From Naegleria gruberi (lineage: Eukaryota), in NCBI GenBank assembly GCA_000004985.1, contig GG738896.1: DNA of 64,000 nucleotides. One strand, written 5' to 3'. Of this stretch, positions 6,747 to 57,909 are shown piece by piece (positions within the stretch are counted from its first letter, which is position 1; each line of letters opens with the position of its first letter). A program made the translations under genes and the position numbers. The notes beneath the pieces were generated by a model, which saw only the letters and a list, made by a program, of their open reading frames with translations, had not been told where the DNA came from and did no database searches.

Positions 6747-8087
6747 ATGTTCAATAATATTGTATTAATATTAAGAATAATTAAAAAATATTTTAAATTG
6801 TATTCGGAATTGAAAAACAATGAAGGTTACCTCCCTCTCGATGATCAGGTACCACAACTCCTATTAGAAATTAAATTAGAGGGGTTCCATTTCCCCTCTC
6901 TATTTGTGTTGTTTTGCCAACAGGTAAAAACGATCAAAACAAATTACAGATATTATTATTTAAAAAAAATGTGTGAGTATTCCGATGATCGACTCGTAGA
7001 TATTATCAATCTTGAAATTAAATTACAAAAGGAATGGTATAGTGATACGATAGAGGGTGATATTCGTTTAGAAATTAAAGAAAATTGTAATCAAGTTATT
7101 CGTATTAAAGATATTACTCTCTTTTTGCAGGGATTAGAAAAATTAGAGTATCAAGTGGAGGGTCCGAACCGATCTTTGGCTTGGAAATCTGATGAAAAAA
7201 AGGTACTACAAAGTGAGGTACCGATCGCTGGAGATGGGAAATTAACAAAAGGTCCTCATGTTTATTCTTTTTCAGAAAGATTACCAACCGATATTCCTGG
7301 ATCATTCTTTGAGGAAACCACTTATCTGGGAAAACAGATCAAGGCTCAGATATCTTACTTTGCATCATGTGTTGTTGAACTAAGGGTGGGAAATGAAAAA
7401 GAGTCTCAACATGTTACAATTCACAAACAATTTGAAATTTTTGAAAAATTAGGTGATAGAATGGCTAACAATTTGTTTGCAAGCAGAAATAATCAATCAT
7501 GTGGATTATTGTGGAAAATATCATCGAGAAGAAATATTTACTGTCGAAGAGACAAATGCCAATTTTATTCAGAAGTATTGAACGAAGGCATCTCTTCTGT
7601 ATCATTTATTACTGTCAGATTGCTGCAGATTTTAAAGCTTAACATGGAGAAACAAAATACATCAGAGAATATTATGTTAGAGGTCTATAAAAAGACCTTT
7701 AATGGTATCCTGCCAAAATGTAAAGATTTGAGAAATATCACATTTGATTTACATCCAGATCTTGTTGATTATTTCCTCTATCCACAAACAACTTATGGAA
7801 GTCTTATCAGAGTAGAGTACATGCTCCAATTTTCACTAGATAATTTGATTGAGATCAATATTCCAATAGAGGTTTTATTCAAGCAAGACATTCCAGTAAG
7901 ACCTTTATCTAGAAACACAATATCATTGACTGATCATGAAAAGTCCAATAGAAGAAAATCAAAGAGCTACTACGGAGAGCTTGAAGATTATGAGGAATCT
8001 GTCGTGTTAAATGATCCAAAAGATCAAGATAATTATCACGAAGTAATTTCATTAGAGAAAAATACTGGCTGTTGTACTATTCAATAG
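6747..8087 (+). CDS. arrestin-domain-like protein (tentative)
   Basis: 446-aa ORF. The central region (GDGKLTKGPHVYSFSERLPTDIPGSFFEETTYLGKQIKAQISYFAS) resembles the arrestin N-domain signature. The true start may be the internal Met at about 6966. Confidence 0.35.
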   Translation: MFNNIVLILRIIKKYFKLYSELKNNEGYLPLDDQVPQLLLEIKLEGFHFPSLFVLFCQQVKTIKTNYRYYYLKKMCEYSDDRLVDIINLEIKLQKEWYSDTIEGDIRLEIKENCNQVIRIKDITLFLQGLEKLEYQVEGPNRSLAWKSDEKKVLQSEVPIAGDGKLTKGPHVYSFSERLPTDIPGSFFEETTYLGKQIKAQISYFASCVVELRVGNEKESQHVTIHKQFEIFEKLGDRMANNLFASRNNQSCGLLWKISSRRNIYCRRDKCQFYSEVLNEGISSVSFITVRLLQILKLNMEKQNTSENIMLEVYKKTFNGILPKCKDLRNITFDLHPDLVDYFLYPQTTYGSLIRVEYMLQFSLDNLIEINIPIEVLFKQDIPVRPLSRNTISLTDHEKSNRRKSKSYYGELEDYEESVVLNDPKDQDNYHEVISLEKNTGCCTIQ

Positions 8088-8237: not shown

Positions 8238-8310
8238 GCCGACATAGCTCAGTTGGGAGAGCGTAAGACTGAAGATCTTAAGGTCCCTGGTTCGATCCCT
8301 GGTGTCGGCA
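8238..8310 (+). tRNA. tRNA-Phe (anticodon GAA)
   Basis: 73-nt cloverleaf GCCGACATAGCTCAGTTGGGAGAGCGTAAGACTGAAGATCTTAAGGTCCCTGGTTCGATCCCTGGTGTCGGCA. The 7-bp acceptor stem is GCCGACA/TGTCGGC, with a GAA anticodon loop and a TTCGATC T-loop. No encoded CCA. Confidence 0.9.
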
Positions 8311-8637: not shown

Positions 8638-10248
8638 TTACCAATAGTTATTACAGCTACAAATTCCATTCTTAAAATGATGAAATCTCTTGGCATCCCT
8701 GACAATAATTTCGCAATCCATCACTTTAGAAATAAATGCTGTTGCTGAATGACAATCATTGCAAACCCTCAGGTTTGTGGTTAATAATATTTTCTTGCGA
8801 TCCTTATTCAACACAAAAGCATGAGCAATTGCTGTTTTTTCTGAATGCCTTAACAGGGCTTTAACTCTTTCGTCTTTAGTCTTAAACTCTGTATTTGGTA
8901 CCCATCTTACATCTGGCACATAACCTGCTTTGATGATTTTTCTGAAAATTTCATCTCTCATTTGCTCAACCTCATTGAATCTGTCAAAATTATCATTGCC
9001 AGATACAAATTTGTAGGTTATTCCATTTTCTTCGTGATACACAATGCCGGGCATTACCTGAATACCCTTTTCTTTCATTAGCTCTCTAATTTTATTTGCC
9101 TTTTCAACAAGTCCATAGTTCATGTAAATATGTGATAATAAATAGGCAGAAGGTTCCAATTCATCGATGGATATCATTATTTTGAATACTCTTTCTCCTA
9201 GCTCTAGGTTATTGAATTTTCTACAACCACACATTAAAGTATTCCAAAGTATATAACTATCATCATGATCAATTACACTTTCTGCCTGTTCTAACAGTCC
9301 TTTTCGTGCCAATGCATCTACCATAGCACATTTATTATGTATGGATGGATGCTTAATTGAGGAAAATACTGAATATACATGCTCTACCATTCCAGAATGA
9401 GAAAGAGCATTCAGCAGAATTGTGAAAGTTTTTTCTGTAGGTTCAATATTCTTTTCTATGAATGAAATGTAAAAATTGAATGCTTCAGATCCCTCACCAT
9501 GATGTGCGAAAACAGAAAGGATGTTATTGCATGTTTCAATTGAAAGAGCTTTTTCATATTTCAACAATTCATCAAAAATCTGTTTGGATGCTTCTAACTC
9601 TCCAATTTTTGAAAAATAAAGAGCTATCGAAGATTGTATTATTTCATTATTGTACAACCCATTATCTTGAATGTGTTTTATCACTCGGTTACCACTGTCG
9701 GTTGATACAAATCTAGAACATGCTTGTAACAAAACAAGATATGTTACAATATTGGGTTGAAAATTTTGCTTCAGCATTTCGTTAAAAACTGTAAAAGCTT
9801 CATTAGCATCACCTATCTCAATAAAAGCCTGTATCAAAGCAGTACAGGTTCCGACATTAACTAGACCTGCCTCACAAAACTCATCGTATAAATCAACTGC
9901 CACATATGGTTTACCACACTTTGTGTAAAAGTTCATGATGGATGTTGCGAGCTCAGTAGTAATATTCTCAATAACATCTGGAATCATTCGGTGAATTTCT
10001 ACTCCTTCCTCATATAATCTATTATCTGCACATCCTTTCAGTAAAATTGTAAATTTAATGTCATTTGGTGATATGTTGTTTCCTTGCATTGTTGTAAAGG
10101 TTTGAATAGCTGTTGAAATGTTTCCAGCGCTAATATATGCTTGGAGTAAACAATTCCATGAACCAATATCTACTCCTCCTGTCTTTTTCAGTTTTTCAAA
10201 CTCCTCCATCGCGAGTTCAGGATGGCCACATTTTGTGTAAAATGACAT
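8638..10248 (-). CDS. PLS-class pentatricopeptide-repeat protein with C-terminal E/DYW cytidine-deaminase-like domain (organellar RNA-editing factor type)
   Basis: 536-aa ORF with degenerate 35-aa helical repeats and FYTKCG-type motifs. The C-terminus (HSEKTAIAHAFVLN...NLRVCNDCHSATAFISKVMDCEIIVRDAKRFHHFKNGICSCNNYW) matches DYW-domain HxE / CxxCH / terminal DYW-like signatures. The ORF begins inside a repeat, so the 5' end is probably spliced to the upstream ORF. Confidence 0.85.
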   Translation of the reverse strand: MSFYTKCGHPELAMEEFEKLKKTGGVDIGSWNCLLQAYISAGNISTAIQTFTTMQGNNISPNDIKFTILLKGCADNRLYEEGVEIHRMIPDVIENITTELATSIMNFYTKCGKPYVAVDLYDEFCEAGLVNVGTCTALIQAFIEIGDANEAFTVFNEMLKQNFQPNIVTYLVLLQACSRFVSTDSGNRVIKHIQDNGLYNNEIIQSSIALYFSKIGELEASKQIFDELLKYEKALSIETCNNILSVFAHHGEGSEAFNFYISFIEKNIEPTEKTFTILLNALSHSGMVEHVYSVFSSIKHPSIHNKCAMVDALARKGLLEQAESVIDHDDSYILWNTLMCGCRKFNNLELGERVFKIMISIDELEPSAYLLSHIYMNYGLVEKANKIRELMKEKGIQVMPGIVYHEENGITYKFVSGNDNFDRFNEVEQMRDEIFRKIIKAGYVPDVRWVPNTEFKTKDERVKALLRHSEKTAIAHAFVLNKDRKKILLTTNLRVCNDCHSATAFISKVMDCEIIVRDAKRFHHFKNGICSCNNYW

Positions 10249-10418
10249 AACAGTATTATGTTAGTTAGTACTAATATTCAGTAGCAGTTTTTGAGCTTGG
10301 TTATGTATCCTTTTACCCTCATCAAATAGTCTGTGGTGTGTGCAAGAAGTTAATAAAATGGATTCATCGATACTATATCTTGGAACTGTGTAATCCAAGC
10401 ACATTTAAGTAGAAAAAA

Positions 10419-11537
10419 CTACAAAAAGGCCCTTATGGTTTTAAGCGAAATGGAAAAAAGAACTGGCTTACCACCTGACAGTACTACATACGGTTTATTA
10501 CTTGGAGCTCTTGGAGAAAACAACTTATACTTATATGGAATAGAGCTTGTTAAATGTATTCCTTTATTGAATATTCCACAATCTGGTTTGATCCCAGTCT
10601 CTATCATTTCATATAAACTCTCTATAGCTTTCTTCATATTATTCATTTCTATAAAAGATTGAATTAAACATGTCCAAGAAATTACATCCATTTTTCCATG
10701 TTTTTGTAATTTCATGCACTCCTCATTCGCCAAAGAGTGGTTTCCACATTTGGAAAAGAATGAAATTAGACTTGAAGACAGTTGCAAACTCTCAACTTTT
10801 GATTTCTGGATTATTTCGTATAACTTCATTCCTACACAAACATTATTGCATCTAGTTGCTTCTTTTAGAATGGGAATGTAAACTCCAAAATTAGGTTCAA
10901 TTCCATTTTGTTGCATTTTGAGTATAGCACTAATTGTTTCATTTAATTGACCGTTCTTGATCATACTCGAAATCAGAGATATAAACGAATAGACTGTACA
11001 TTGTCCTTTCTCAATTAAAATATCAACAACTAGTTCACATGATGAGGTATCTCCAATTTTGGAGTAATACTGTAAAATTGCATTGTAAGTAAAGTAGTTT
11101 GGAGCAGCCAAATTCTTGTTTACAATTCTTTCGAATAACCTTACTCCTTGTTTTTCATAATTTGGATGACTAAGTAAATGTTGAATGGCAAAATTCCAAG
11201 ACTTTTCTTTAAGTTTTAGTTCATCATCTTGGTTTAGGCAATCAAACAAGTTTGACAAATCAAGTAAACACTCTTCTAGCTCCTTTTTTTGATTTCCCGA
11301 CACTTTGCACTTGTGAGTCATTGCCAAACATATTTCTATCATGTTGGTTGGTAATAAGTCTTTCTGTTGTTTTGATTTTCGGTAGATTGTAAATAAATTA
11401 TCAAACGAAGCCCCATAGCCCACTAATTCTCGGAAGGTGCTGCTGTTGGTAGTGGTAGAATAATATTTCTTTCCTAAATTCTCAAGAAAGGCTTTCATAG
11501 ATGTGCAAGTCTTCCCTTTGAAAAGTTGTGATATCAT
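10419..11537 (-). CDS. PPR-repeat protein; probably the 5' exon of the DYW-PPR gene at 8638..10248
   Basis: 372-aa ORF with tandem PPR-like motifs (VISWTCLIQSFIEMNNMKKAIESLYEMIETGIKPDCGIF; YFTYNAILQYYSKIGD). Same strand and phase-compatible, with a 170-bp gap to the DYW ORF. The C-terminal 40 aa look like read-through. Confidence 0.55.
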   Translation of the reverse strand: MISQLFKGKTCTSMKAFLENLGKKYYSTTTNSSTFRELVGYGASFDNLFTIYRKSKQQKDLLPTNMIEICLAMTHKCKVSGNQKKELEECLLDLSNLFDCLNQDDELKLKEKSWNFAIQHLLSHPNYEKQGVRLFERIVNKNLAAPNYFTYNAILQYYSKIGDTSSCELVVDILIEKGQCTVYSFISLISSMIKNGQLNETISAILKMQQNGIEPNFGVYIPILKEATRCNNVCVGMKLYEIIQKSKVESLQLSSSLISFFSKCGNHSLANEECMKLQKHGKMDVISWTCLIQSFIEMNNMKKAIESLYEMIETGIKPDCGIFNKGIHLTSSIPYKYKLFSPRAPSNKPYVVLSGGKPVLFSISLKTIRAFL

Positions 11538-11987: not shown

Positions 11988-14111
11988 ATGGCCCAAGTTG
12001 AAACTTACAAATTCCAAGCCGAAATCAATCAATTGATGAGCTTGATTATTAATACATTCTACAGCAATAAGGAAGTCTTTTTGAGAGAGTTGATTTCCAA
12101 TGCTTCAGATGCTTTGGATAAGATTCGTTATATGAGTTTGACTGAACCTTCAGTTTTGGATACTGAAAAGGAATTGTGCATTCATTTAATTCCTGATAAG
12201 GTAAACAAGACATTGACAATTAGAGATACAGGTTGTGGTATGGCCAAGCACGATTTAATTAATTGCTTGGGAACTGTTGCAAGATCTGGAACTAAACAAT
12301 TTATGGAAATGCTTCAAGCTGGTGCTGATGTTTCCTTAATTGGTCAATTTGGTGTTGGTTTCTATTCTGCTTACCTTGTTGCTGATCGAGTTGTTGTCAC
12401 AACTAAACACAATGATGATGAACAATACATTTGGGAATCATCTGCTGGTGGCAGTTTTACAATTACTTTGGATGAAAGTGGTGAAAAATTGTCACGTGGA
12501 ACCAAGATTGTTCTTCACATGAAAGACGATCAATTAGAATATTTGGAAGAAAGAAAGTTGAAGGATTTGGTAAAGAAGCACTCTGAATTTATTGGTTATC
12601 CAATCTCTTTACAAGTTGAAAAGACTGAAGAGAAGGAAGTTGATGAAGATGACTCCATGTCAGATGATGAAAAGAAGGACGAAGACAAGAAGGAAGATGG
12701 TCCAAAGATTGAAGAAGTCAAGGAAGTAGATGACAAGAAAAAGAAGAAGGTTAAAGAAGTCAAGAAAGAGCTCGAATTGTTGAATAAGAACAAGCCATTG
12801 TGGACTCGTGATCCAAAGACTGTCACTAAGGAAGAATATTCCAGTTTCTACAAGGCATTGACAAATGATTGGGAAGAACATTTGGCTGTCAAGCACTTTT
12901 CAGTTGAAGGCAACTTTGAATTCAAGAGTTTGTTGTTCACACCCAAGAGAGCTCCATTCGATCTATTCGAACCAAAGAAGAAACTCAACAATATCAAACT
13001 CTATGTTAGAAAGGTCTTTATTATGGATAATTGTGAAGAGTTGATTCCAGAATATTTGAATTTTGTGAAGGGTATTGTTGACTCTGAAGATTTGCCATTG
13101 AATATTTCCCGTGAACACTTGCAACAAAACAAGATTATGAAAGTTATTAGAAAGAATTTAGTCAAGAAGTGTATTGAAATGTTCACTGAACTTGCTGAGA
13201 ATAAGGAAGATTTCAAGACTTTCTATGAAGCATTTGGAAAGAATTTGAAATTGGGTATTCATGAAGATTCTCAAAATAGACAAAAGTTGGCCGAGTTATT
13301 GAGATTCCACTCCTCTCAAACTAAAGGTGAAGATTGGACCAGCCTCAAGGAATATATTGAACGTATGAAGGAAGGTCAAGAATTTATCTATTACATTACT
13401 GGTGAAAGCAGAAAGGCAGTTGCTAGCTCACCATTCATTGAAAAGTGCACCAAGAAGGGAGTTGAAGTCTTGTACATGACTGATCCAATTGATGAATACA
13501 TGGTTCAACAATTGAAAGAATTCGAAGGCAAGAAATTAGTGTGTGTAACAAAGGAAGGATTGAAATTGCCAGAAACTGAAGAAGAAAAGAAGAAGAAGGA
13601 AGAATTGAAGGCCTCATTCGAAGCATTGTGCAAGTTGATGAAGGATATTTTGGGAGATAGAGTTGAAAAGGTTGTTGTTTCTGATAGACTTGGTGATTCT
13701 CCATGTTGTTTGGTTACTGGTGAATATGGTTGGAGTGCAAATATGGAAAGAATCATGAAAGCTCAAGCTTTGAAGGACAATTCTATGGCCTCCTACATGG
13801 TTTCAAAGAAAACAATGGAAATTAATCCAGAAAATTCTATTGTCAATGAATTGAGAAAGAAGGCTGAAGCTAATAAGGCTGACAAGACTGTCAGAGATTT
13901 GGTTTGGTTGTTATTCGAAACTGCCTTATTGACTTCTGGTTTCAGTATGGAAGAACCTCATACTTATGCTTCCAGAATTCACAGAATGATCAAACTTGGT
14001 TTGAGTATTGATGAAGAAGATCTTGCCTCTGAAAAGACTGAAACAACAAGCCAAGAAAATAAGGTTGAAGAAAGTCCAGCTGCTGAATCCTTAATGGAAG
14101 ATGTTGATTAA
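11988..14111 (+). CDS. HSP90: cytosolic heat-shock protein 90
   Basis: 707-aa intronless ORF. N-terminal ATPase signature ([22 protein letters not shown]), a charged K/E linker, and a C-terminal MEDVD. Confidence 0.95.
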
Positions 14112-14121
14112 AATAAATAAT

Positions 14122-16464
14122 TTATCTCTTTTCCTTTACAAAGAATCTCAATAAGAGACCAGCTAAAACAATAAAGAAAACAGCAAAGCTTGCAGTGAAA
14201 ATGATATCCGCATAGAATCTTTCGTGGTCCATTCCCAATTCTTTCAGGAAAAAGTCACCATCACCTGGGAAGCTTGGGAAACCTTTTGGATCAATAACGA
14301 TTGGGAATCCGTGCAATTCATTGATGAGAAGGGCTTCATAGGCATAACTAAAGTATGAAAAGTATTTAATCCATGAGAGGTAGACTGGAAGTGAATCAGT
14401 ATTCAACAAGAATCCAGCAAACAACATATTTCCAAGAATTAACAAAATTGAAATCAAGTTAGCAGAAGCAACACTATTAGCAATTGTACCAATACAAATA
14501 CAGAGAGCTCCACTTGCTAAATTGAATAAAATTAAAATGAAAATAAACCAAAAGAAGTGTGAAGTGATTTCTCTCAAACCAATCATCCACTAATAATATT
14601 TTAGATAATTATTTCTATTGTCAAATAATCAATATTGAAAAATACTTACATAAGCAATAGATCCCATAATAATTGGTGGAATGACACGGAGTGGAATTAA
14701 ATCAAAGAAAGTCTTTGAGAAAAAGTATGAAATTGAAAGATAGTATCCATTTGCTCTTTCTCTCACATAAATTGTACGTTCTGTAATAAATAATTCCAAG
14801 CTAGACATGGCAGCAAAGTTCAACAAAGCACACATGAAGAAAATACTACCCATTCTGTTTTGACAAGCTTGGATATTGTTACTTTGCTGGAAGTAAATGG
14901 CACCAAGTAAAAGACCCATGATAATAGCACTCAAATAGTGAGCTGGCATAAGGTAGAAATTTCTGTAAAAGTTACGGAATGATCTCTTAGATAAAATGTA
15001 AAGTTGCGTATAGAACGAGGTGGCATACTCTTGAACCTTCTTGGTGTAAATATTATCTTCTGTCTTTACCAAGAGATTTTGTGATTCTTGATTTTCAGAT
15101 CCATAACCAGATTGTTTGAAAATTGGTTGTTGGTAAGATAAAGATTGATTATTTTGATTAATAGAAGTTCCTTGAGTCTCATTTTCTGACATTTCTGACA
15201 TGACATCTAATAAAAAGTCAGCAGGATTGTATTGAGATGGACAGTCATGACCAAGTTTTGACAAATAATCCAATGATCCTTCAGCACTTCCACTATAGAA
15301 TATTTTACCATCCTTCATTAAGAGTAAATTATCAAATTGTTGGAAAATATTAGAACGAGGTTGATGGATAGAGAATACAATAGTTCTGTTATGTTTAGTG
15401 GCCAGGTCGCAAATAGTCTTGATGGTTGAGACTGCGTGATATGAATCCAATCCCTTAAAAAGTTTGTCATTCATTAATAAAAGTAAAATTACTAACACTT
15501 GTAGGTTCATCCAAGAAGAGAATTTGTGGTGCAATGACTAATTCACAAGCAATACTGACACGACGTTTTTCGCCTCCAGAAATACCTTAAAAAGTTTGTT
15601 ATTCATGAAATAAAAGTAAAATTACTTACCTCTTGTCATGGCATCACCAATCTTTCTATCACGAATATGTGAAATTCCAAGCTCTTCCATAACAGACTCA
15701 ACACGTCTCTTCTTTTCCGTATATGGGACAGTATCAGGTAAACGAAGCTCCGCACTAAACATGATTGATTCAAAAACTGTCAAGGTACCCATTAAATGAT
15801 CATCTGATTGAGATACATAACCAGCAACTCTCTTATATTGGTTATAGTCAATTGGTTTGTTATTAACCAATAATTCTCCAAAAACATCTCCAGATTTAGA
15901 TCTACCAGCAATAATATCCAATAATGATGTTTTACCAGCTCCAGAAGGACCCATAATAGCAGTAACAGTTCCCGGTTTAAAGGTGTGACTCAATCCATGA
16001 AGAAGTGTAATTCTATTCTTGCTCTTGAGATGGAGAGCCCTTTCTCTTTCCTCCTCCTTTTCTTCCTTTGCAATATCTTCCTCATTGACTCCACTAACTT
16101 CCTGGAGAGAATTGATTTTCTTAGCAGTAGTTCTGATAATATAGGTCAAGTTACGAATTTCCAACTTGGCTCCAAATTCATTATTTCCTGTCTTCATCAT
16201 ATCCTCATATTCATGTTTAACCTTTCTAGTTTGAAGTTTAGAATAAATAATACTGAAAATTAATACAATCATGATAGCAACAAAAATTACTGAACCAACA
16301 GCTCCAGCAACAATTTTAGGTAAATCATTTTGTTTTGGTGGTTGAGGTGCAGGAACGTATACATCAACACACTCAGCAGCATGATCACAAGTTGATTGAA
16401 TAACACCAGGGAAGTTTTCATGTTGAACTATTAGAAAAATATTAACAGGTAAATATTTTAACAT
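14122..16464 (-). CDS. ABCG (White-type) half-transporter core, NBD-TMD; at least 4 exons in this span
   Basis: Walker [15 protein letters not shown] signature [13 protein letters not shown] lies in the 15497..15585 exon. Walker B/D-loop FLDEPTSGLDS. C-terminal 6-TM ABCG-type domain. Introns: 15586..15629, 15454..15496 and about 14587..14646 (GTAAGT...TATTAG). Confidence 0.75.
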
Positions 16465-17372
16465 TGGAATTGAAACTTACTTGAACAAGACTTGGTTTCG
16501 TTATTACACTGTACATTTGCATAACCAGTCATGTGTTCTAATATATACAATACAAACTGGTTATAACATTTTGGAGAAATCATTGAACATGCACAGCCAG
16601 TAGTATATCCACATTTGTATAATACTTCTCCTTTTTCTGGAATTGATAAGACACAATCGTGGAATGTACAATAAAAAGTTTCAGCAAGAGAAGTATCAGA
16701 CTTGTCAAATGATCTGAAATAACAATTTCCACCAGCTGTCTTATTTTCCATTCCATTACAGTCAATTGTGAAATAATTTCCCATGAGAGGTATCATTCTT
16801 TCCGAAGTAACTTCACAACTATAAACCTTTTCTTTCTGTGGAATGTATGATTTATCACAAAAAGCAGCCGAATTGTTCAATCGTTGTTGACAAACGTAAT
16901 CATTACTACACATTCTACAATCCAATCCTTCCCATCCAGGTTGACAAGAACAAACTGGAGATTTATCGTCATCACTACTCGTACTAAATAAATTTCTTCT
17001 TGTGTTCGAATCATCATAAACTTTATCTGTCAATGATTTTCCATTTACACAGTCAATCAAAGAACAATTTCTAATTCCCATGGATAAATCATTCTTGAAA
17101 CCAGGCAAACAAACACATGTTGTATTATCTGTCGAACAATATCCAGCATTCATACATCTCGCATCACTATCACAAATTGTCCAATCGTATTGTTGTTGTC
17201 CAACAATTAGACTACCACTACTCATCATTATGATCACTAGGAAAATAAATAATACTAAACCACTACCACCGAATTTGAATGAATTATTGTTTGGGTTCTT
17301 CCGAATCCTATGTAGACCATGAGAGATCCCACCATTGGAAGAAGATAATGGGTTGGATAGCGATATCTGCAT
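16458..17372 (-). CDS. signal peptide plus EGF-like Cys-rich ectodomain; probable 5' exon of the ABCG gene
   Basis: 304-aa ORF with an N-terminal hydrophobic signal (LVLFIFLVIIMMSSGSLIVG) and EGF-like C-x-C patterns (CVCLPGF, CSCQPGWEGLDCRMC). A GTAAGT donor after TCAA at about 16470 and a TAATAG acceptor at about 16420 join in phase to ...[35 protein letters not shown]. Confidence 0.5.
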   Translation of the reverse strand: MQISLSNPLSSSNGGISHGLHRIRKNPNNNSFKFGGSGLVLFIFLVIIMMSSGSLIVGQQQYDWTICDSDARCMNAGYCSTDNTTCVCLPGFKNDLSMGIRNCSLIDCVNGKSLTDKVYDDSNTRRNLFSTSSDDDKSPVCSCQPGWEGLDCRMCSNDYVCQQRLNNSAAFCDKSYIPQKEKVYSCEVTSERMIPLMGNYFTIDCNGMENKTAGGNCYFRSFDKSDTSLAETFYCTFHDCVLSIPEKGEVLYKCGYTTGCACSMISPKCYNQFVLYILEHMTGYANVQCNNETKSCSSKFQFQC

Positions 17373-20014: not shown

Positions 20015-23000
20015 AAATCATTTAAAAATCCAGTTTCATATCCAACACCTGGATGGCAATTATTATATTTCCAAGGATTTAATTGCCCAAAGAATGGAGT
20101 TCCTGAAGGAATTAGTGATCGTAGTTATGGACAATTGCGTGTTGGATATAATCACATTATTGCTTTTCAAGTGAAAAGTAATAATGGAACACAAAAATTA
20201 AATATTGTAGGAAAAGGTGATAATACAGTTGGTCAATTAGCTATTGATAGATATATTTCTGGTGGAGTCAGATATTTTGCCAATATTACATTTGAAATTA
20301 ACTGGGGAGAGATGGTTAGATTAGTACAAATTGAAGATTTAATAACATCAAGAACTATTGCAAATAATCAAGATGTTGCTAAACTTCAAACTTATGATGC
20401 TTGGGATTCTAATCTTTATTTTGATAATATTAAGGGACACTATTTCCCTGATAATATTATTATTCAAGATATTAATACTTGTTATTTAAATACTTTTATA
20501 ATTTTAAAGAATCAAGAAATTTATGGAACTGGTTCAAATATTTACAAAAGTTTAAGTTTATCAAACGAAAATAGCAAAAGTAACTCTCCTATAAGATTAA
20601 CAATTTTGGAAAATTTTTTAAAATCACAAAGTGATTGGATTGATCAACTTTATTGTGGTTATTCATCTGTTTTTATTAAAACAAAAGCTAATAGAATTAT
20701 TGTATTTGGTAGAAATGATGTAAATCAATTAGGTCTTGGATCTGAATTTAGAGCAAATTCAATTACTCCAACAATTCATCCATTTTTAACATATTATTCA
20801 CAAAATATTGCAAATCTTGATACTATTTCATTTGGTTTAAATTTTACTTTAATTTCATTCAAAGATGGTTCAGTTTATTGTGCTGGTTTAAATAATCACC
20901 ATCAATGTGGTCTTGGTATTAATGAATATACAATTTCAAATTTTGTTCAAGTACCAATACCAGAAAAGATTACAAAAATATCAACAACAGCATATGCATC
21001 ATTTTTTGGTATTGAAACTGGTGAAATATTATCTTCAGGATGGAATTTAGGTTTTATTTTAGGACAAAATATTACTGATGAAAATTATGTTTCATCTACT
21101 CCAGTTAAAATTGAAAATTTAATTTCTCCAAATGATTATCAACTTTCAAAAGGTTTTCAATTATTTCATATAACTTATCAAAATGCAACATCAACTATGG
21201 CATGGGGATCAAATCAATTTTATAGTTCTGGTATACTTTATCAGGGTACTGGAACAGCTGCTTATCCAACTATTTTAGCATTGGGCAATGTGGAACGTGC
21301 TGTTTTAGAATCTATTGCAAATCCATCTGAATGTATTTTAGTTGGTGGTCATGCTGCTGCTAATGGTTGTTCCAATAGTTTATTACAAAGAATTAATTTA
21401 AAAACAGGATTTAATACTACATTTGGTGAATTTCGTTCATATTGCAGTAATTTTGGTACTTTTAATTATTCTACAGAAGTTTGTTCATGTGATGAAAAAC
21501 ATTATGGATATTCATGTCATTTAATCAAACCAGAATTTTTAGGAAATTGTAACCAATCAAGTTTAGAAAATTTTGCTATTGCTCCAAATACATGTTATTG
21601 TGGTGGAGAAGGTTTTTATGGAACATCTTGTGAAAATAAGGCACCTCCTAGATCTGTTTACAGTTTTACTAGATCTTTAAATATTCAAAAATTTACTCTA
21701 AAAAATAAGATGTTTGATTTTGGTTATTTAATAAGTGGTCAATCACATACATTTTTAAAATCTCAATTGAATAATAATAGAGTTTATGTATTTGGTAATG
21801 GATTGAATACAAATGATAAATATGGAATTGGTTTGGCTAGTAATAATATGATAAGTGATACTATTCAAATTTCAACATTATTTGAAAGATTATCAAAGAA
21901 ATTAACTTCTTCAATAAGAAATATTTATCCAATGAAAATTCAATCAGTTGCATTATTTAGTAATGGAGATATTTATAAGACTTTAAATAATTCAGATTTT
22001 GAAATTATTGCAAGTAATGTTAAATATTTAACATGTTCAGATATTACATGTTTTTTTATTACTAATGATAAGAATGTTTATGGTATTTTTGATAATCAAT
22101 ATAATCAACTTGGTTTAACTGATTTTGCAACAAGACAAAAAGTTTATGAATCTCAACCTGTTTTAGTATCACTTTTAAATAATAATTATCATAAGGAGAT
22201 TGTTAATATTTATCCTTCAAATTATTTTACATTATTTGTTAATCAATTTGGTAATTTATTTGGTATTGGTAAAAATACAGAATATCAATTAGGTATTGGA
22301 CATAATTTAAATATTGATAAGTTTATTATTCCATTAATAATTGAAAAACCTGTTTCACATGTTATTGTTACAGAATCTATTACATATTTTAAAGAATTAA
22401 ATTCTGTTTGGAAAACAATGGGTAAAGATATTTTAAATATTGCTCCAATTTCTCAATATTTAATTTATCCAACAGTAATAACATCTTTACAAGAACAAGA
22501 AAATATTTATAGAGCTAAAGGTGATATTATTATTACTCAAACAACAACTAAATTTAGACAATTAACACTTAATCAAGACCTTTCATATGGTCAAGAAAAA
22601 ATTATTGATGTTAATATTATGGGAGATGATATTATTTTAGTTACAATTCCAAGTAATTTTAATTCTATACTTTGTTATAATGGTTATTTAGATATTACTG
22701 GTACTTCATGCATTTGTGATAAAGGTTTTAGAGGAATTGATTGTAATTCTTATTTATGTGATAGAGTAACATGTAATTCATGTATTGGACCAAATATATG
22801 TTCTAAAAATCAATCTACAACAACAAATGAATTGAGATTATTCTCAAAAAATTATGGAATGATACAATCAAAGTTTAATGTTAAACATCATACTATTGGT
22901 GATAATTTTGCTATATTTATAGATTATGATGGTGAAACTAAATTTATTGGTGATAATTTTTATGGTGAATTAGGAATGGGTGGTTATTCTTCAATTAGTA

Positions 23001-26000
23001 TTAGTACCTCAAATTTACAACTTTTAACAAATAATATTTTACTTTTACCAATTTATTTAGCTAATGAAAATGTTAAATCAATTACATCTGGCAATAATTT
23101 TATTATTGTTTTAACAGAATCAGGTAATTTATTCTCTGTTGGTGATAATAGATTTGGTCAATTAGGTCAAAATGATACTATTAGTAGATATTTTTTAACT
23201 AAAATAGAAAGTACAATAACTTTTACAAGTGTAACTTGTAATTCTTTTCATTGTATTGCCTTAGGATCAAACAACAAATATTATGGTTGGGGAGATAACA
23301 CATTTGGTCAATTATGTTTAGATTCAACAACTAAAAAGGTTGTTTACACACCTTCACAAATTATATTTGATGTTATTATAGATGTTGTATCTACTTCAAT
23401 TATGTCAATTGGTCAAAACTCTTCAATATTTTATAGTAATAGTGGAGATGTGATTGCTTGTGGTAAAATAACAGTACCATCAAATTATGCTGATAAATCA
23501 GTAAGACAAAGAGTTTTACCAAATTTCAATATTGATTTACAAGCTATGGAACAAATACCAAGAAAATTCTATACCGATTTATGTTTAAAAAATTCTAATG
23601 AAGAATATTACTGTTTAGGTGAAAACAAATTTGGTACTCTAGGTTTTGGTCATGCTTTACCTCTTTATGGAATTTTTTTATCAAAACATTTTGGTGTTGA
23701 TGGAGGATTATTTTTCCATACTCACACTAATAAGATTAATTTCTATTATTCTAAAAACAAAATTTTAAATTATTTTGGTAATGGTGATTTATTGAATGAT
23801 ATCAACAATATGAATCCAGCAAGACAAACAAATGTTTTTCAATCAATTGGTAAATTTAGTTTCATAACATCAAATGAGAAATTTGGTTATATAATTACAA
23901 ATACTAGCAATTGTTTTAATAGAGGATATTTTTCTAATGGAATTTGTACTTGTAATAATATTAAATATTTAGGTGATGAATGTCAAACAAATACTAACAT
24001 TCCACAAGGTACAACTTCTCAATTCCAAATAATTGATACTTTAGGTAATAATTTTAATTTTACTAATAAGTTTGGAAGTATGTCAAAAATTGAAACATTT
24101 GGTAATTTACCATTTGGTTTTAATAATACTAGAAATAATTTAAGAGTTGTTAGTACCTTTAATTTGGCATTAAATCAATCCACTTCTCAACTTGCACTCA
24201 TTTTTGCTATTGATAATTATGCTAATTTAAACGTTGACATTCAATTTCCAAATAGTGGGAAAATTAGTAAACTTCAAACAAGATTGGAGGAAGGATCTGA
24301 TTACATTTATCATACAATTACTACTGATAATATAGATACTAATGCAATTATTCAAGTAACATATACAACAAATAATTCAGTAATTTTAGATAGTGATATG
24401 AAGAACCAATTTCTTAAAGTTTATACAAGAAATGAAAAAAATAATATTATTCCTATTGGATTGAAATCTAGCTCTGAATTATTATCTGAAGTACTTGCAA
24501 GGTTGAATTTCCTTTTTTCTATTAATGGTCCACATACTGCAGAAATTTCCTCTATTGAAGAATTTCCATGTGATCTAGATGGTAATAATAATGTGATAGG
24601 TCTCAGATTAGATGGAAATTTTTTCAATTATACATTTTATCCAATTCTAAAAGATGAATCTTTCCGTACTTTAAAGAACTTTTACAGCTCAAAAATTTCA
24701 TCAATTAGATATCCTATTCATGAAACATTTAATTTTGCAGAAAGTGATATTAGTCTCATTAATTTATCTAATAATAATAATCTTGAACAATCTGCAGGTT
24801 ATTATGATTTATCACCAGTTAAAAGAACAAATATTTTAATTAATGTTTCAAAATCAAAGATTTGTGATATTCCATTTGCTGATTTATTTATTAATCCTTC
24901 TAAATATAATTTTACAAATACTAATATGTATTGTATGAAACCAATTTTTGATAATTCTTGGTGTAAACCATTAAGTTTTAGAGAAAGTACTTTATACTTG
25001 ACTCAATTTTTTGTTTCTACAAAATTAAGTATTCCACTTGCACTTTGTGACTCATGTTCTATTTTAAATTGTTTTGATTTTTTAACTCAAAATACTTCTA
25101 GATTATCCTATTATTTTGTTTACCCAGATAATAATAAGATTATTTCTAATAATTTTAATATATTTGAAACAAGAAAGGATGTAAATGTTGATTTATTATT
25201 CAATGAATTTAATGAAAATAATTTCCTTAATTTTGATTATATTAATATGGGTATTATTTATAAATATGATTCTCCTATTGGAATACAAGAATTAAAAGGA
25301 ACTATCAAATTACAATATTTGAAATATTTACAAAGTTTCAATTTTACACCTATTGTACTTGCTAGAAATAGTGATAATATTGTTACAATTAAAAGTGAAA
25401 ATATGAAAGATTTCATAAAATATAATCAAGTTTATTGTAAAACAAGAATTAGTGAAGAAATAATTACTTTGGATGACAATGATAAATCAACTTCCTATTG
25501 TAATATTAGAACTGGTATTGAATATAATCAAAATATAACAGTTCAATTAATGGCTTACCCTATATCAGGAAATAATCCTTTTAAAATTGGAGAATTTAAT
25601 GTTTATGTTTTAAATATAACACTTATTCCAAATATTATCAATAAGTATTCTACAAAATATCCACAATTAATATTTATTAATTCTGATTTTACAACAGGAA
25701 GCTTTTTATCAAATTCTAAATTAGAATTTATGGAAAATGGTGAAACTGTTTATAAGATTGATCAACTAAAAATTAGTTATTTCAATACTTTATCCATTAC
25801 TGCAGATATTTATAAACAAAATCTTGACATGTATTTAGATAATGTAAATTTAGGATATTTTACTTCTCAAATTGTTTATAAACAAGTCAATTTAGAAAAA
25901 ATTATTCCATCCTTAAGTTTTAATACTGAAGAGATGCCTACAATTTATTTAGATAGAGAAATTTATTCAAATATTCATTCAAATATTCAGTATAGATGTT

Positions 26001-29000
26001 TAGATACTTTAACAAATACTTCATATTCTGCTCAATACTTAAATTCTAGAATAATATGTAATATTAATAATTTACCTACAAATAATGTAAAATTATTAGA
26101 TTTAATTGTTCAAATAAGAATTTATTCATTTAATGATAATGAATGGTTTACATATAGTAGTAATAGTGTTAAGTTTTATCATTTAATTTCTAATATGAAT
26201 ATTTCTTTAGCAGAAGGATCACAAACCTTTTCAAAATGTCATTATTTATCTTCTAGTACAACAGGTTTCACTCCAAGAATTAAATTAAATGAAATTGTTT
26301 TACCTGAAAGTGAAACTTATAGATTTTCAATATGCCATTATAATAGGTTAAATGAAATTGTTACCTATAGATCTAATTATTATAGAGATAATTTATTTGA
26401 AGCATCAGGATTTACTTTATATCTTAAAAGTGGTTATTCTAATATTTATTTATGTGCTGACTCAATGATTGTATCAAAACCAGTTGTAGTTTTTGTTATT
26501 AATCAAACAGATTATGATTCCAAACCAATTTTTGGTTTTATTGGTTCTGATATTTGGTCTGGTTATATTTTCCATCATCAACCACTTTATTCTGATTCTC
26601 TCTTCAATTTAACCTATTCTTGTGCCTTATTTGGTGATGTTCAAAATTATACTGTTTATTCAACAGATTTAATTACAAACAAAATTGATAATTATTATGT
26701 AACAAGATGTATTTTCACTGGTTTAAATAATATTATCAAACAAGAGGCAGGTTTTTATTTTTCATTACTTGCAAAGAGAGGATCAGAAACTGTTCAATTA
26801 CCAGCTACTTTTATTAATTTCATTTATGGACCAAAACCTACAAATTATTCTACTCCATTTATTTCTCATATTCCATATTCTGGTTATATTTCAACAACTT
26901 TATTAACACAAGATCAGGATAGAGATTTATTTGTTTCTAAAAATCAAAATGGATTTTTTAGATTAACTCTCCCAATTGATTGTTTGTTATTTAAAGTTGG
27001 TGGTACTTATCCTATTGCATCTGCACCACTTGATACAACATCATCAACTCTAAAATGTGATTTAACTAAATATACAGTTACAAGCAGTGAACCATTCGAA
27101 ATATCATTAGGTTCACTTGTTACAGAATATTCTTATTTTGTAGAATTTACATCAAGAACTGTACATTTCACATATTTGAATAAGATAGAATTTAACTTTG
27201 AAGGCTATCCAATTTTAGAAACTGGAAAATCTATTCTTCTAAATTATTATACTAACAAACTTCCTCAATACAAACAAACCCAATTGAATGTTACTATGTC
27301 TGCATTAGGACAATACCCCATTATCAAGTCATGTGATTTTGAACTTACAGGATCTTGTATAGTAGATTATAATTTAACAATTCCAATTACTCCAGTTTTA
27401 CAAACTTACATACTTCAATTTTCATTTATTATTAATGAATTTTTATTGAAACAAACATTGAACATTGAAAATACATTGTTCAATAACAGATTTAATGTAA
27501 TGTACTATTCACCATTCCTCTTTGATTTTAAAACTGATTCAAGCATTTACAATTTCAAGTTACAAATTGATAATGGATTAAATCCTGATTTCAATTTTGA
27601 TCTTGATACTGATGGTATTAGAAGAAGCATTTTTTATGGTTTGAATAATGATAGTATAACAGAAGTTACTTGCTCTAGAATTAGTAATTATAGTACTAGT
27701 ATAGCATCTAATTTAGAAACAAGAATTGTATCAACATTTAAAGGAATTACATTTTCTGTTGATAAGAAACCATCAACTATTTACCTTAGAGAACTTTACA
27801 CTACACCAAATATTGTCTCTCAATCAATTCAAAAAACTATTAATATTACTCTTACTACAGATATTGCTATTCAAAAACCTCTAAAGAAGTATTATATTTC
27901 TTTATTAGATAATAAGTATGAATGTAGTATTGAATCAACATCTTTGATTTGTCCTGTTTTAATTACATATATTGGTAATCCTTTCTACAAGGAAGTTCTT
28001 AAAATTTTAGATGGTGATAATGTTGTAACAAGGATTGGTTTACCATTTATCCTATTCAAACCAATTTCTATTCGTGAAGTTAAACCAACACTTCTACTTC
28101 AAGATAATAACTCTGTTAATACTACAGTTTTAATGGAGCAAACAGTTTTTGAAGATTTAGGAACAGAATTTATATTTTCTTGTTCCATCGAAGATGGTAA
28201 CTTCTCAGCTATTGTTGGTGATTCTAACTCTGTTAGATGTAATTTCAATAACTTGAATACTGGAAGAAAGAGTGTAAAAATTTATCTTTCCTCTAATAAT
28301 CAATACAGATCCATCAAGGAATTATTATTAACTGATATTAATCCAGCAAAAGATTTTGAAGTTATTAAGAATCCAACCATAGCTCTTGATAATTCTATTG
28401 AGCAAAAAACTTTATTCTATACTTCTGAAACCTTTTCATTAACAACTCTTAATATTCTAGTTACAAATACTGAATTCACTTTGAATAATATCTTGTATAA
28501 CATTTCTACTGAAATTGGTTTTTATGGAAAAAACAGCTTTGTTGAAAGTACTACTTATTTGGGAAAATTTGATACATCATACAAATTCCAAGTATCATTT
28601 TATGCTTCAAATAACTATGAAGGATTTGTTCCTCTGAGATTAACAAAAGTTTTATCAGGAACTACTAAAGAATCTAGAGCTCTTACTTCTGATGATTACA
28701 TTTTAACAAAGATATCTGATTTGGTTCTAACTTGTGTAACAAAGGTAACTTTATCAAAGAGTGTTCCAGCATTTGGTGTTGAATCTAATTTACCAAGATT
28801 AGTTCAATTATATTCAAACTTTAACTTTTTAAAATTTATTCCTGATTCTAATCTTTTACAAGATGGAAAGGTTAATTTTAAGTGTGTTTATGAATATTTA
28901 CCAAAATCTAATAAGGCAATTAGTAGCACTACTAGAATTTATAATAACGAAGCATTCGAATGTAATATGACAACACCAGATGTTGGTCAAGTTCAAATTG

Positions 29001-57836: not shown

Positions 57837-57909
57837 TATACCCTGTGGGACTCGAACCCACAACCCCCGGCTCCGTAGGCCGATGCTCTTCCAATTGAGC
57901 CAAGGGTAC
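57837..57909 (-). tRNA. tRNA-Arg (anticodon ACG)
   Basis: Minus-strand read GTACCCTTGGCTCAATTGGAAGAGCATCGGCCTACGGAGCCGGGGGTTGTGGGTTCGAGTCCCACAGGGTATA. The acceptor stem has a G1:U72 wobble, the anticodon loop is CTACGGA, and the T-loop is TTCGAGT. No encoded CCA. Confidence 0.8.

What the first reader, a model, noticed from the sequence alone, without database searches (positions are those of the whole stretch)
8638..11537. DYW-type PPR (plant-like organellar C-to-U RNA-editing factor) gene, probably split by one intron into two ORFs
The C-terminus of the 8638..10248 product carries a complete DYW cytidine-deaminase-like signature (HSE..., CNDCH, CSCNNYW). That domain is characteristic of land-plant editing factors and is known from only a few protist lineages, where it has been interpreted as an ancient horizontal transfer. 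That ORF begins in mid-repeat (MSFYTKCGHP), and the upstream same-strand ORF 10419..11537 consists of further PPR motifs. A single gene of about 900 aa with a roughly 170-nt intron is therefore likely. Its presence predicts C-to-U editing in this organism's organelle transcripts.
Basis: partly seen in the sequence, partly recalled or inferred. Interest (0 to 1): 0.6.

Follow-up and report, generated by a model that had tools for sequence, protein, structure and literature searches.

The report
Known Naegleria DYW editing-factor gene, interrupted
This is one of the already published plant-like DYW-type PPR (C-to-U RNA editing factor) genes of the amoeba Naegleria gruberi; its two ORFs were once a single gene of about 897 codons, but what separates them is an inserted backwards PPR fragment plus an in-frame stop codon, not a simple intron.

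Summary
The window is Naegleria gruberi nuclear DNA. ORF 8638..10248(-) is 100% identical to XP_002672651.1 / NAEGRDRAFT_72252. It has a PLS-type PPR array, an E motif and a full DYW deaminase domain with HSE, CNDCH and CSCNNYW.

N. gruberi DYW-type PPR genes (10-11) were published in 2010, and two mitochondrial C-to-U sites were verified in 2011, so the family and the predicted editing are already known.

The unannotated upstream ORF 10419..11537(-) does belong to the same ancestral gene. Joined to the DYW ORF, it is colinear with a paralogue (NAEGRDRAFT_45423 plus the 822-aa DYW protein P0002), including the N-terminal leader.

The gap is not a 170-nt intron:
- Homology is restored only by removing 206 nt (10363..10568). 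This piece starts AATAAAGG and ends GATGAA, with no GT-AG, unlike the GTAAGT introns elsewhere in the window.
- On the opposite strand this piece encodes a PPR P motif plus part of an L motif, which passes Pfam thresholds.
- An in-frame TAA (10261..10263), aligned to Leu in the paralogues, lies 4 codons before the annotated ATG. No GT-AG intron I found removes it without also deleting conserved PPR sequence.

Most likely this is a recently disrupted or 5'-truncated family member. An assembly or allele artefact cannot be excluded. Interest is low.

The parts
10569..11537 (-). N-terminal part of the ancestral gene: 323 codons, comprising a basic, Ser/Thr-rich leader and about 6 PPR motifs, ending ...GIKPDCGIF. 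It is not annotated in the public N. gruberi protein set.
   Evidence: It is the open part of the 372-codon ORF (chance about 1e-13). Pfam PPR_2 scores E 2.9e-16. Its best relative is N. gruberi NAEGRDRAFT_45423 (P0036) at 443 bits, with query residues 50-323 matching protein residues 27-298. No identical or near-identical annotated protein exists.
10363..10568 (+). 206-nt inserted piece (boundaries good to a few nt). It shifts the frame of the minus-strand gene. On the plus strand it encodes FIDTISWNCVIQAHLSRKNYKKALMVLSEMEKRTGLPPDSTTYGLLLGALGENNLYLYGIELVKCIPL, which is a PPR P motif plus most of an L motif in inverted orientation.
   Evidence: tblastn of paralogue P0002 hits the plus strand at 10357..10548 with E 9e-11. 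The 72-aa peptide passes Pfam gathering scores: PPR_2 47.9 bits against 30, and PPR 30.7 against 25. Removing the piece gives a gap-free alignment to the paralogues. Its ends are AATAAAGG...GATGAA. The source is unknown: identity is at most 38% aa to any fetched protein and 54-63% nt to the gene's own units.
10264..10362 (-). 33 in-frame codons (SILLTSCTHHRLFDEGKRIHNQAQKLLLNISTN): the rest of the interrupted L motif and the start of the next S motif.
   Evidence: Frame translation. Aligned to TILLSACANSNMYEEGVKIHELAKQTLKDFTIG of the paralogue.
10261..10263 (-). In-frame TAA stop codon at position 3 of an S motif, opposite Leu in the paralogues (consistent with TTA to TAA). It lies 4 codons upstream of the annotated ATG.
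8638..10248 (-). Annotated ORF XP_002672651.1 / NAEGRDRAFT_72252 (536 aa plus stop). It contains a partial S motif, 9 PPR motifs (P-L-S, P-L-S, P2-L2-S2), E1, E2 and a DYW domain.
   Evidence: 100% identity to the NCBI protein. Pfam. Motif segmentation.
9043..9216 (-). E motif (Pfam PF20431). The PG-box-like PGIVYHEENGITYKFVSG lies at 8998..9051.
8641..8925 (-). DYW cytidine-deaminase-like domain: HSE 8839..8847, CNDCH 8749..8763, and HHFKNGICSC...NYW at the C-terminus 8641..8682.
   Evidence: PF14432 scores 115.9 bits over the full-length profile. Alignments to PDB 9kfx (E 3.7e-47), 7o4e (OTP86 DYW domain, 9e-26) and 7w86 (DYW1, 6e-24). Coordinates.

Best explanation
The locus is NAEGRDRAFT_72252, one of the published Naegleria gruberi DYW-type PLS-class PPR genes.

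In this family, intact members are imported into the organelle (mitochondria are the site of editing in N. gruberi). The P/L/S repeat array binds one RNA base per repeat just 5' of a target cytidine. The C-terminal zinc-dependent DYW deaminase (HxE, CxxCH) converts that C to U.

The ancestral gene here was a single reading frame of about 897 codons starting at 11537, with no interruption at this position in the paralogue's annotated protein. It had a leader, about 16 PPR motifs, E1, E2 and DYW.

In the assembled sequence this frame is broken by two lesions within about 310 nt:
1. A 206-nt frameshifting insertion in the middle of an L motif. It is itself a PPR P-L fragment in reverse orientation, perhaps filler DNA copied from another PPR gene during break repair (a guess).
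2. A TTA-to-TAA nonsense codon 34 codons further on.

The locus therefore cannot make the full-length factor by ordinary splicing. It is most likely a recently disabled or 5'-truncated copy. The annotated 536-aa model is simply the first ATG after the stop and lacks the leader.

Shown here: domain content, identity, colinearity with the paralogues, the two lesions, and the absence of intron-like ends.

Inferred: the RNA-editing mechanism (from plant homologues and the literature), how recent the damage is, how the insertion arose, and loss of function.
For: - Identity: 100% to the N. gruberi protein.
- Domains: PPR, E and DYW all exceed Pfam cutoffs. The catalytic and zinc residues align to solved DYW domains.
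- One ancestral gene: the reconstructed 897-aa product aligns to P0002 over residues 123-897 (42% identity) and to P0036 over the N-terminal part (40%). Neither alignment has a gap at the excision junction, and the TAA falls opposite Leu. The start codon region MISQLFKGKTCT resembles MLARKLFGKCTT of P0036 by eye; the MAFFT alignment does not pair these residues. HSP90 lies head to head 450 nt upstream.
- Not an intron:
  - The piece begins AATAAAGG and ends GATGAA.
  - Every in-frame GT..AG pair inside the gap leaves 4-40 extra residues and still leaves the TAA.
  - Intron-like junctions between same-strand ORFs in this window start GTAAGT or GTACGT and are roughly 45-70 nt. One of them is confirmed because its removal restores the ABC signature TRG|ISGGEKRR.
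- Inverted fragment:
  - tblastn E 9e-11 on the plus strand only here; the antisense of the other roughly 17 motifs gives no hit.
  - Pfam PPR_2 scores 47.9 bits.
- Recency: both flanking ORFs are fully open (323 and 536 codons), and the 33 codons between the two lesions still match the paralogue (10 of 33 identical by my count on the alignment).
- Leader: the N-terminus at 11537 has net charge +4 and is rich in Ser/Thr. The annotated N-terminus has 4 Glu in 25 residues and net charge 0.
- Literature: 10-11 DYW genes but only 2 verified editing sites in N. gruberi (PMC4202320). That leaves room for redundant or decaying copies.
Against: - No RNA data could be consulted, so unconventional or long-range splicing cannot be excluded. 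For example, 10685..10183 (GTAATTTC..AAAAAG) would drop one PLS triplet and give an open 798-aa product.
- Zero stops in 859 flanking codons could equally mean that both halves are still under selection, that is, still functional.
- The lesions could be assembly or sequencing errors, or be confined to one allele of a polyploid strain. Only one assembly was available.
- The source of the inverted fragment was not found. The repair-filler origin is therefore a guess.
Confidence: 0.7

Rival explanations
1. One reading: one gene of about 900 aa whose two ORFs are joined by removing a single ordinary spliceosomal intron of about 170-200 nt.
For: The two ORFs are on the same strand, colinear with a paralogue, and separated by a short AT-rich gap. 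Several in-frame GT..AG pairs exist in the gap, for example 10530..10373 (GTATAAGT..ATATAG) and 10579..10386.
Against: - None of these pairs restores the motif; they leave 4-40 junk residues.
- Their 5' sites are poor compared with the GTAAGT introns of the window.
- The exact homology junction has no GT-AG.
- The TAA at 10261..10263 remains in frame in every case.
- The paralogue protein runs through this point without interruption.
- The gap carries a Pfam-significant PPR fragment on the other strand.
Confidence: 0.06
2. Gene fission into two working genes. The upstream ORF would make a 372-aa PPR protein with the targeting leader. The annotated 536-aa ORF would make a short PLS-E-DYW protein. 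The two might act separately or together, as plant PPR-E proteins do with trans-acting DYW proteins.
For: Both ORFs are completely open. The only nonsense codon lies in the 34-codon stretch between the insertion and the downstream ATG, which has about a 4-8% chance if placed at random over the locus. The 536-aa product keeps 9 PPR motifs, E1, E2 and an intact DYW.
Against: - The downstream Met is an ordinary repeat position (position 8 of an S motif, as in SIMNFYTKCG).
- Its N-terminus is acidic and unlike a presequence.
- No separate promoter region exists.
- The statistic is post hoc and weak.
- The upstream product would end in 49 junk residues.
Confidence: 0.12
3. Artefact or allele-specific lesion. 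The organism has an intact 897-codon gene, and the inverted 206 nt and the TAA come from misassembly, a chimeric clone, a sequencing error, or one defective haplotype.
For: Only one public draft assembly underlies the sequence. The paralogous locus is also cut into two mid-repeat models (P0036 ends ...ELSQHNY, P0002 starts MKKHGIYPD...) on one contig, which suggests assembly trouble in PPR repeats. Both flanks are otherwise pristine.
Against: The inverted piece matches no annotated protein closely and no other place in the window, so it is not an obvious misplaced read. Two independent errors within about 310 nt would be needed.
Confidence: 0.12

Closest known systems
Naegleria gruberi DYW-type PPR family (Knoop and Rudinger 2010, FEBS Lett 584:4287; 10-11 genes). 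Paralogues seen here: NAEGRDRAFT_45423 (P0036), the 822-aa protein P0002, NAEGRDRAFT_32040 (P0047) and the 386-aa P0003.
   Same: Same organism. The annotated ORF is itself a deposited member-type protein (XP_002672651.1). It shares the PLS repeat style (FYTKCG S motifs, ISW(T/N)CLIQ P motifs), E and DYW, at 47-49% identity to P0002 and P0003. The N-terminal leader is homologous to P0036.
   Different: This copy carries an inverted PPR-fragment insertion and an in-frame stop, so only its 3' 536 codons are annotated. Its terminal tripeptide is NYW rather than DYW, GYW or DFF. I could not read the 2010 paper, so I do not know whether it lists this accession or notes the disruption.
Land-plant PLS-E-DYW organellar C-to-U editing factors, for example Arabidopsis OTP86 (At3g63370; DYW domain structure 7O4E/7O4F), DYW1 (7W86) and the synthetic PPR-DYW (9KFX)
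   Same: Same domain order (P/L/S repeats, E1, E2, DYW). Full-length match to the DYW profile with HxE, CxxCH and the C-terminal H..CxC zinc site aligned. About 30% identity over the whole 536 aa to plant proteins.
   Different: It is a protist nuclear gene, thought to have been acquired by horizontal transfer. S motifs are 34 aa rather than 31. No target site is assigned. Only 2 editing sites are known in the organism, against hundreds in plants.
Acrasis kona DYW-type PPR proteins (Fu et al. 2014, PMC4202320)
   Same: The other heterolobosean with 12 DYW-type genes, 2 verified mitochondrial C-to-U sites, and an excess of factors over sites.
   Different: According to that paper, the Acrasis and Naegleria sets group with different donor-side clades, which suggests independent acquisition. 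I made no direct comparison here.

Membership tests
DYW-type PLS-class PPR protein | Tandem PPR motifs of alternating P, L and S types | tested here: met
   Pfam PPR_2 scores E 7e-47 on the 536-aa ORF and 5.6e-64 on the reconstruction. Manual segmentation gives a contiguous array of L?-S-P-L-S-P-L-S-P-L-S-P-L-S-P2-L2-S2 with 33-36-aa units.
DYW-type PLS-class PPR protein | E (E1/E2) motifs between the repeat array and the deaminase domain, with a PG-box-like junction | tested here: met
   PF20431 E_motif scores 38.7 bits against a cutoff of 27.3. PGIVYHEENGITYKFVSG lies at 8998..9051 and aligns to PGCSWIEVNNKVHEFVAGD of 9kfx.
DYW-type PLS-class PPR protein | Complete DYW deaminase domain with the catalytic HxE and zinc-binding CxxCH, plus the C-terminal H...CxC site | tested here: met
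   PF14432 scores 115.9 bits against 24, covering profile 1-93 of 93. HSE, CNDCH and HHFKNGICSC align to 9kfx and 7o4e.
DYW-type PLS-class PPR protein | C-terminal Asp-Tyr-Trp tripeptide | tested here: inconclusive
   The protein ends NYW. Paralogues end GYW, DYW or DFF, so the tripeptide varies within this family.
DYW-type PLS-class PPR protein | Intact full-length reading frame with an organelle-targeting N-terminus | tested here: not met
   The frame from ATG 11537 is broken by the 206-nt insertion and the TAA at 10261..10263. The annotated start lacks a presequence-like N-terminus. No targeting predictor was available.
DYW-type PLS-class PPR protein | Site-specific C-to-U editing activity on an organellar transcript | not testable with these tools
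   No N. gruberi mtDNA or cDNA is in the tool collections. The literature reports two sites in the organism (Rudinger et al. 2011, cited in PMC4202320) but assigns no factor to them, as far as I could read.
Spliceosomal GT-AG intron (for the gap between the ORFs) | GT...AG ends at the junction that restores the homologous protein sequence | tested here: not met
   The 206-nt piece starts AATAAAGG and ends ATCGATGAA. AT-AC ends do not fit either, by inspection of the sequence.
Spliceosomal GT-AG intron (for the gap between the ORFs) | 5' site and size like other introns of the same genome | tested here: not met
   Intron-like junctions in the window start GTAAGTAT, GTAAGTAA, GTAAGTTT, GTACGT or GTAAGTGA and are roughly 45-70 nt (one confirmed by motif continuity). 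Candidates in the gap start GTGGAATA or GTATAAGT.
Spliceosomal GT-AG intron (for the gap between the ORFs) | Removal yields an open reading frame | tested here: not met
   Every candidate within the gap leaves the TAA at 10261..10263 in frame. Only long excisions that delete conserved PPR motifs avoid it.
Spliceosomal GT-AG intron (for the gap between the ORFs) | Spliced transcripts | not testable with these tools
   No RNA data were available. The protein collection holds no transcript-derived copy of either ORF.

The most novel reading that the evidence does not exclude
The two lesions mark a gene fission rather than a death. Under this reading, the upstream ORF supplies an imported PPR RNA-binding protein and the downstream ORF supplies a short PLS-E-DYW deaminase module. 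The two would act in trans, like plant CRR4 with DYW1 or PPR-E proteins with DYW2. Alternatively, the inverted PPR module would be removed by non-canonical processing. Either case would be a protist example of how split editing factors or new introns arise from repeat-gene rearrangement.
Probability: 0.07. Interest if true: 0.5.

Novelty: already known. Interest (0 to 1): 0.15.

Why it matters
The main claim, a plant-type DYW editing factor in a protist that predicts C-to-U editing, was published for this organism in 2010 and confirmed experimentally in 2011. It adds nothing new.

There are two small gains:
- A correction to the public gene model. The annotated 536-aa protein is the 3' remainder of a gene of about 897 codons, and its unannotated 5' part is still open.
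- The observation that this copy is interrupted by an inverted PPR module and a stop codon. This fits the known surplus of DYW genes (10-11) over editing sites (2) in N. gruberi, and it shows how PPR repeat genes rearrange.

Tried and rejected
- **In-frame GT..AG pairs inside the gap.** None restores the motif and all keep the TAA.
- **GT..AG pairs that skip the TAA.** There are 98 ad hoc in-frame combinations, as expected by chance in AT-rich DNA. The neatest, 10685..10183, drops one PLS triplet. Nothing supports any of them.
- **AT-AC (U12-type) ends at the homology junction.** They do not fit.
- **In-place inversion.** Flipping the 206 nt back does not give a periodic P-L-S array, so the piece is an insertion and not a simple inversion.
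- **Transposon.** Inspection of the ends shows no terminal inverted repeats or target-site duplication, and there is no second copy in the window.
- **Recent self-duplication.** Nucleotide identity to the gene's own units is only 54-63%, and aa identity to any fetched protein is at most 38%.
- **Source gene search.** No protein in the 5.8-billion-cluster collection shares three 5-mers with the fragment.
- **RNA hairpin between the inverted fragment and the neighbouring P motif.** z = -1.5, not significant.
- **Rfam.** Nothing in the region.
- **Orthologue search for the N-terminal part.** Only the N. gruberi paralogue was found, and there are no metagenome loci.
- **Paralogue DNA.** I could not fetch it; the look-up of encoding contigs has no record for P0001 or P0002.
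- **Primary papers.** Knoop and Rudinger 2010, Rudinger et al. 2011 and Schallenberg-Rudinger et al. 2013 are not held. They are cited second-hand through PMC4202320 and PMC5421314.
- **PPR-code target prediction.** The fifth and last residues of each motif are tabulated, but no mitochondrial sequence was available for comparison.
Full report
**1. Observation**

Both ORFs are present at the stated coordinates on the minus strand: 8638..10248 (536 aa) and 10419..11537 (372 aa). The window has 23-36% G+C. At this composition a stop is expected about every 13 codons, so open runs of 372 and 536 codons have chance probabilities of about 1e-13 and 4e-19.

Pfam results for the 536-aa product:
- PPR_2: E 7e-47.
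- E_motif: 38.7 bits against a cutoff of 27.3.
- DYW_deaminase: 115.9 bits against a cutoff of 24, covering the whole profile (1-93 of 93).

They align position for position with the HSE, CxDCH and CSCGDYW motifs of three solved structures: the synthetic PPR-DYW protein 9kfx (E 3.7e-47), the OTP86 DYW domain 7o4e (9e-26) and DYW1 7w86 (6e-24). The upstream ORF carries PPR motifs (PPR_2 E 2.9e-16).

**2. Identity and prior knowledge**

The 536-aa ORF is 100% identical to a deposited Naegleria gruberi protein: EFC39907.1 / XP_002672651.1 / NAEGRDRAFT_72252 / UniProt D2VTC6. Its nearest relatives are N. gruberi paralogues at 47-49% identity, followed by land-plant DYW proteins at about 30%.

According to PMC4202320 (Fu et al. 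2014) and PMC5421314:
- Fu et al. used 11 such sequences as queries.
- Two mitochondrial C-to-U editing sites were verified experimentally (Rudinger et al. 2011).
- The family is interpreted as a horizontal acquisition from early land plants.

I could not open the three primary papers, so I do not know whether this particular accession or its gene structure is discussed there. No held paper mentions the accession.

**3. Are the two ORFs one gene?**

Historically, yes.

tblastn of paralogue P0002 (822 aa) against the window hits the minus strand at 11171..10569 in the frame of the upstream ORF, and at 10362..8641 in the frame of the DYW ORF.

An exhaustive HMMER search with the upstream 323 residues found one specific relative, P0036 (443 bits, 38% identity). 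Query residues 50-323 match protein residues 27-298. P0036 is N. gruberi XP_002682649.1 / NAEGRDRAFT_45423, on the same 1.0-Mb contig as P0002.

If 10363..10568 is removed and the stop is read as X, the product is 897 aa. This product:
- aligns with P0002 over residues 123-897 (42% identity);
- aligns with P0036 over the whole N-terminal part (40% identity; the first 20 residues are not aligned by MAFFT);
- has no gap at the junction: GIKPDCGIF|SILLTSCTHHRLFDEGKRIH against GIYPDSATFTILLSACANSNMYEEGVKIH.

The array then reads as an uninterrupted series of P, L and S motifs followed by P2, L2, S2, E1, E2 and DYW.

The ATG at 11537 is preceded by an in-frame stop. It lies 450 nt from the divergently oriented HSP90 gene. 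It opens a basic, Ser/Thr-rich N-terminus with net charge +4 in 25 residues. The annotated start MSFYTKCGHPELAMEEFE is position 8 of an S motif and has 4 Glu in 25 residues.

The upstream ORF is not in the public protein set.

**4. Is the gap an intron?**

The evidence says no.

(a) The 170 nt between the two ORFs are not the discontinuity. Of them, 99 nt (10264..10362) are in-frame PPR sequence belonging to the interrupted L motif and the next S motif.

(b) The piece whose removal restores homology is 206 nt (10363..10568). It starts AATAAAGG and ends ATCGATGAA, with no GT-AG ends. AT-AC ends do not fit either, by inspection.

(c) All in-frame GT..AG pairs inside the gap have weak 5' sites (GTGGAATA, GTATAAGT) and leave 4-40 non-homologous residues. 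By contrast, intron-like junctions elsewhere in this window begin GTAAGT or GTACGT and are roughly 45-70 nt. One of them is validated because its removal restores the ABC-transporter signature TRG|ISGGEKRR.

(d) An in-frame TAA at 10261..10263 lies 34 codons after the junction and 4 codons before the annotated ATG. It is opposite Leu in both paralogues. Every candidate intron in the gap leaves it in frame. Only long excisions that delete conserved motifs avoid it, and 98 such combinations exist by chance.

(e) The annotated protein of the paralogue runs straight through the corresponding position.

**5. What the 206 nt are**

On the plus strand the piece reads FIDTISWNCVIQAHLSRKNYKKALMVLSEMEKRTGLPPDSTTYGLLLGALGENNLYLYGIELVKCIPL. 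This is a PPR P motif plus most of an L motif, in the opposite orientation to the gene.

This is not a generic antisense effect. P0002 hits the plus strand only here (E 9e-11), and not opposite the other roughly 17 motifs. The peptide passes Pfam's curated cutoffs: PPR_2 47.9 bits against 30, and PPR 30.7 against 25.

Its four best matches among all fetched proteins are N. gruberi PPR proteins, but only at 32-38% identity. Other comparisons also fail to identify a source:
- Nucleotide identity to the gene's own units is 54-63%.
- No protein in the 5.8-billion-cluster collection shares three 5-mers with it.
- There is no second copy in the window.

Flipping it back in place does not give a periodic array, so it is an insertion rather than an in-place inversion. 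By inspection it has no terminal inverted repeats or target-site duplication. I regard filler DNA copied from another PPR gene (unannotated or lost) during break repair as the most plausible origin, but that is inference.

**6. Functional state**

The two lesions lie within about 310 nt, and the other 859 codons are intact. The 33 codons between the lesions still match the paralogue (10 of 33 identical by my count). This pattern fits three readings:
- a recent disruption, which I favour;
- continued selection on one or both halves, that is, gene fission or a 5'-truncated factor;
- an error or a defective allele in the single available assembly.

The position of the stop, in the 34 codons between the insertion and the downstream ATG, has only about a 4-8% chance if placed at random. 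That is weak and post hoc.

The paralogous locus is also split into two mid-repeat models: P0036 ends ...ELSQHNY and P0002 begins MKKHGIYPD. This is a warning that PPR repeat regions of this assembly may be unreliable.

No RNA evidence could be consulted.

**7. Mechanism**

This part is inferred from the family. In an intact member, the leader directs import into the organelle. Each P, L or S motif contacts one base through its fifth and last residues (tabulated). The array positions the E and DYW region over a cytidine a few nucleotides 3' of the bound stretch. The zinc-dependent DYW deaminase (HxE, CxxCH) converts that C to U. No target could be predicted because no N. gruberi mitochondrial sequence is available in the tools.

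**8. Verdict**

The finding is real but already known. The only new details are the unannotated 5' half and its interruption by an inverted PPR module plus a stop codon. Interest is low.

Noticed in passing
10357..10572 (+): A Pfam-significant PPR P-L fragment lies on the strand opposite to the PPR gene, exactly inside the supposed intron. Its source gene is unknown.
   Followed up: yes
outside the window: N. gruberi proteins P0036 (XP_002682649.1, 749 aa) and P0002 (822 aa), both on one 1,001,995-bp contig: The closest paralogue also appears to be cut into two gene models in mid-repeat. P0036 has the leader and PLS array but no DYW and ends ...ELSQHNY. P0002 starts MKKHGIYPD and carries E and DYW. 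This is possibly one gene split by a gap or by collapsed near-identical 104-aa repeats. The DNA could not be fetched.
   Followed up: partly
20135..36013 (+): A single ORF of 5292 codons runs through the most AT-rich part of the window (23-29% G+C at 20-30 kb). It has an RCC1-like beta-propeller (250 bits) near residue 900-1200 and one ephrin-receptor-like repeat near the C-terminus. The rest has no Pfam match.
   Followed up: partly
8238..8310 (+) and 57837..57909 (-): tRNA-Phe(GAA) lies about 330 nt beyond the 3' end of the PPR gene, on the opposite strand, and tRNA-Arg(ACG) lies further along. Both were found by ARAGORN and Rfam.
   Followed up: yes
11988..14111 (+): An apparently uninterrupted cytosolic-type HSP90 ORF (707 aa, ends MEDVD) is arranged head to head with the PPR gene start, 450 nt away. 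This is a likely shared promoter region.
   Followed up: partly
14122..17372 (-): Four consecutive same-strand ORFs look like one ABC-transporter gene. They are interrupted by short GTAAGT...AG introns of roughly 45-70 nt. One intron is confirmed by restoration of the ISGGEKRR signature. I used these as the local intron standard.
   Followed up: partly
6747..8087 (+): A 446-aa ORF with a weak Arrestin_N match (27.3 bits against a cutoff of 24.9) converges on the PPR gene.
   Followed up: no
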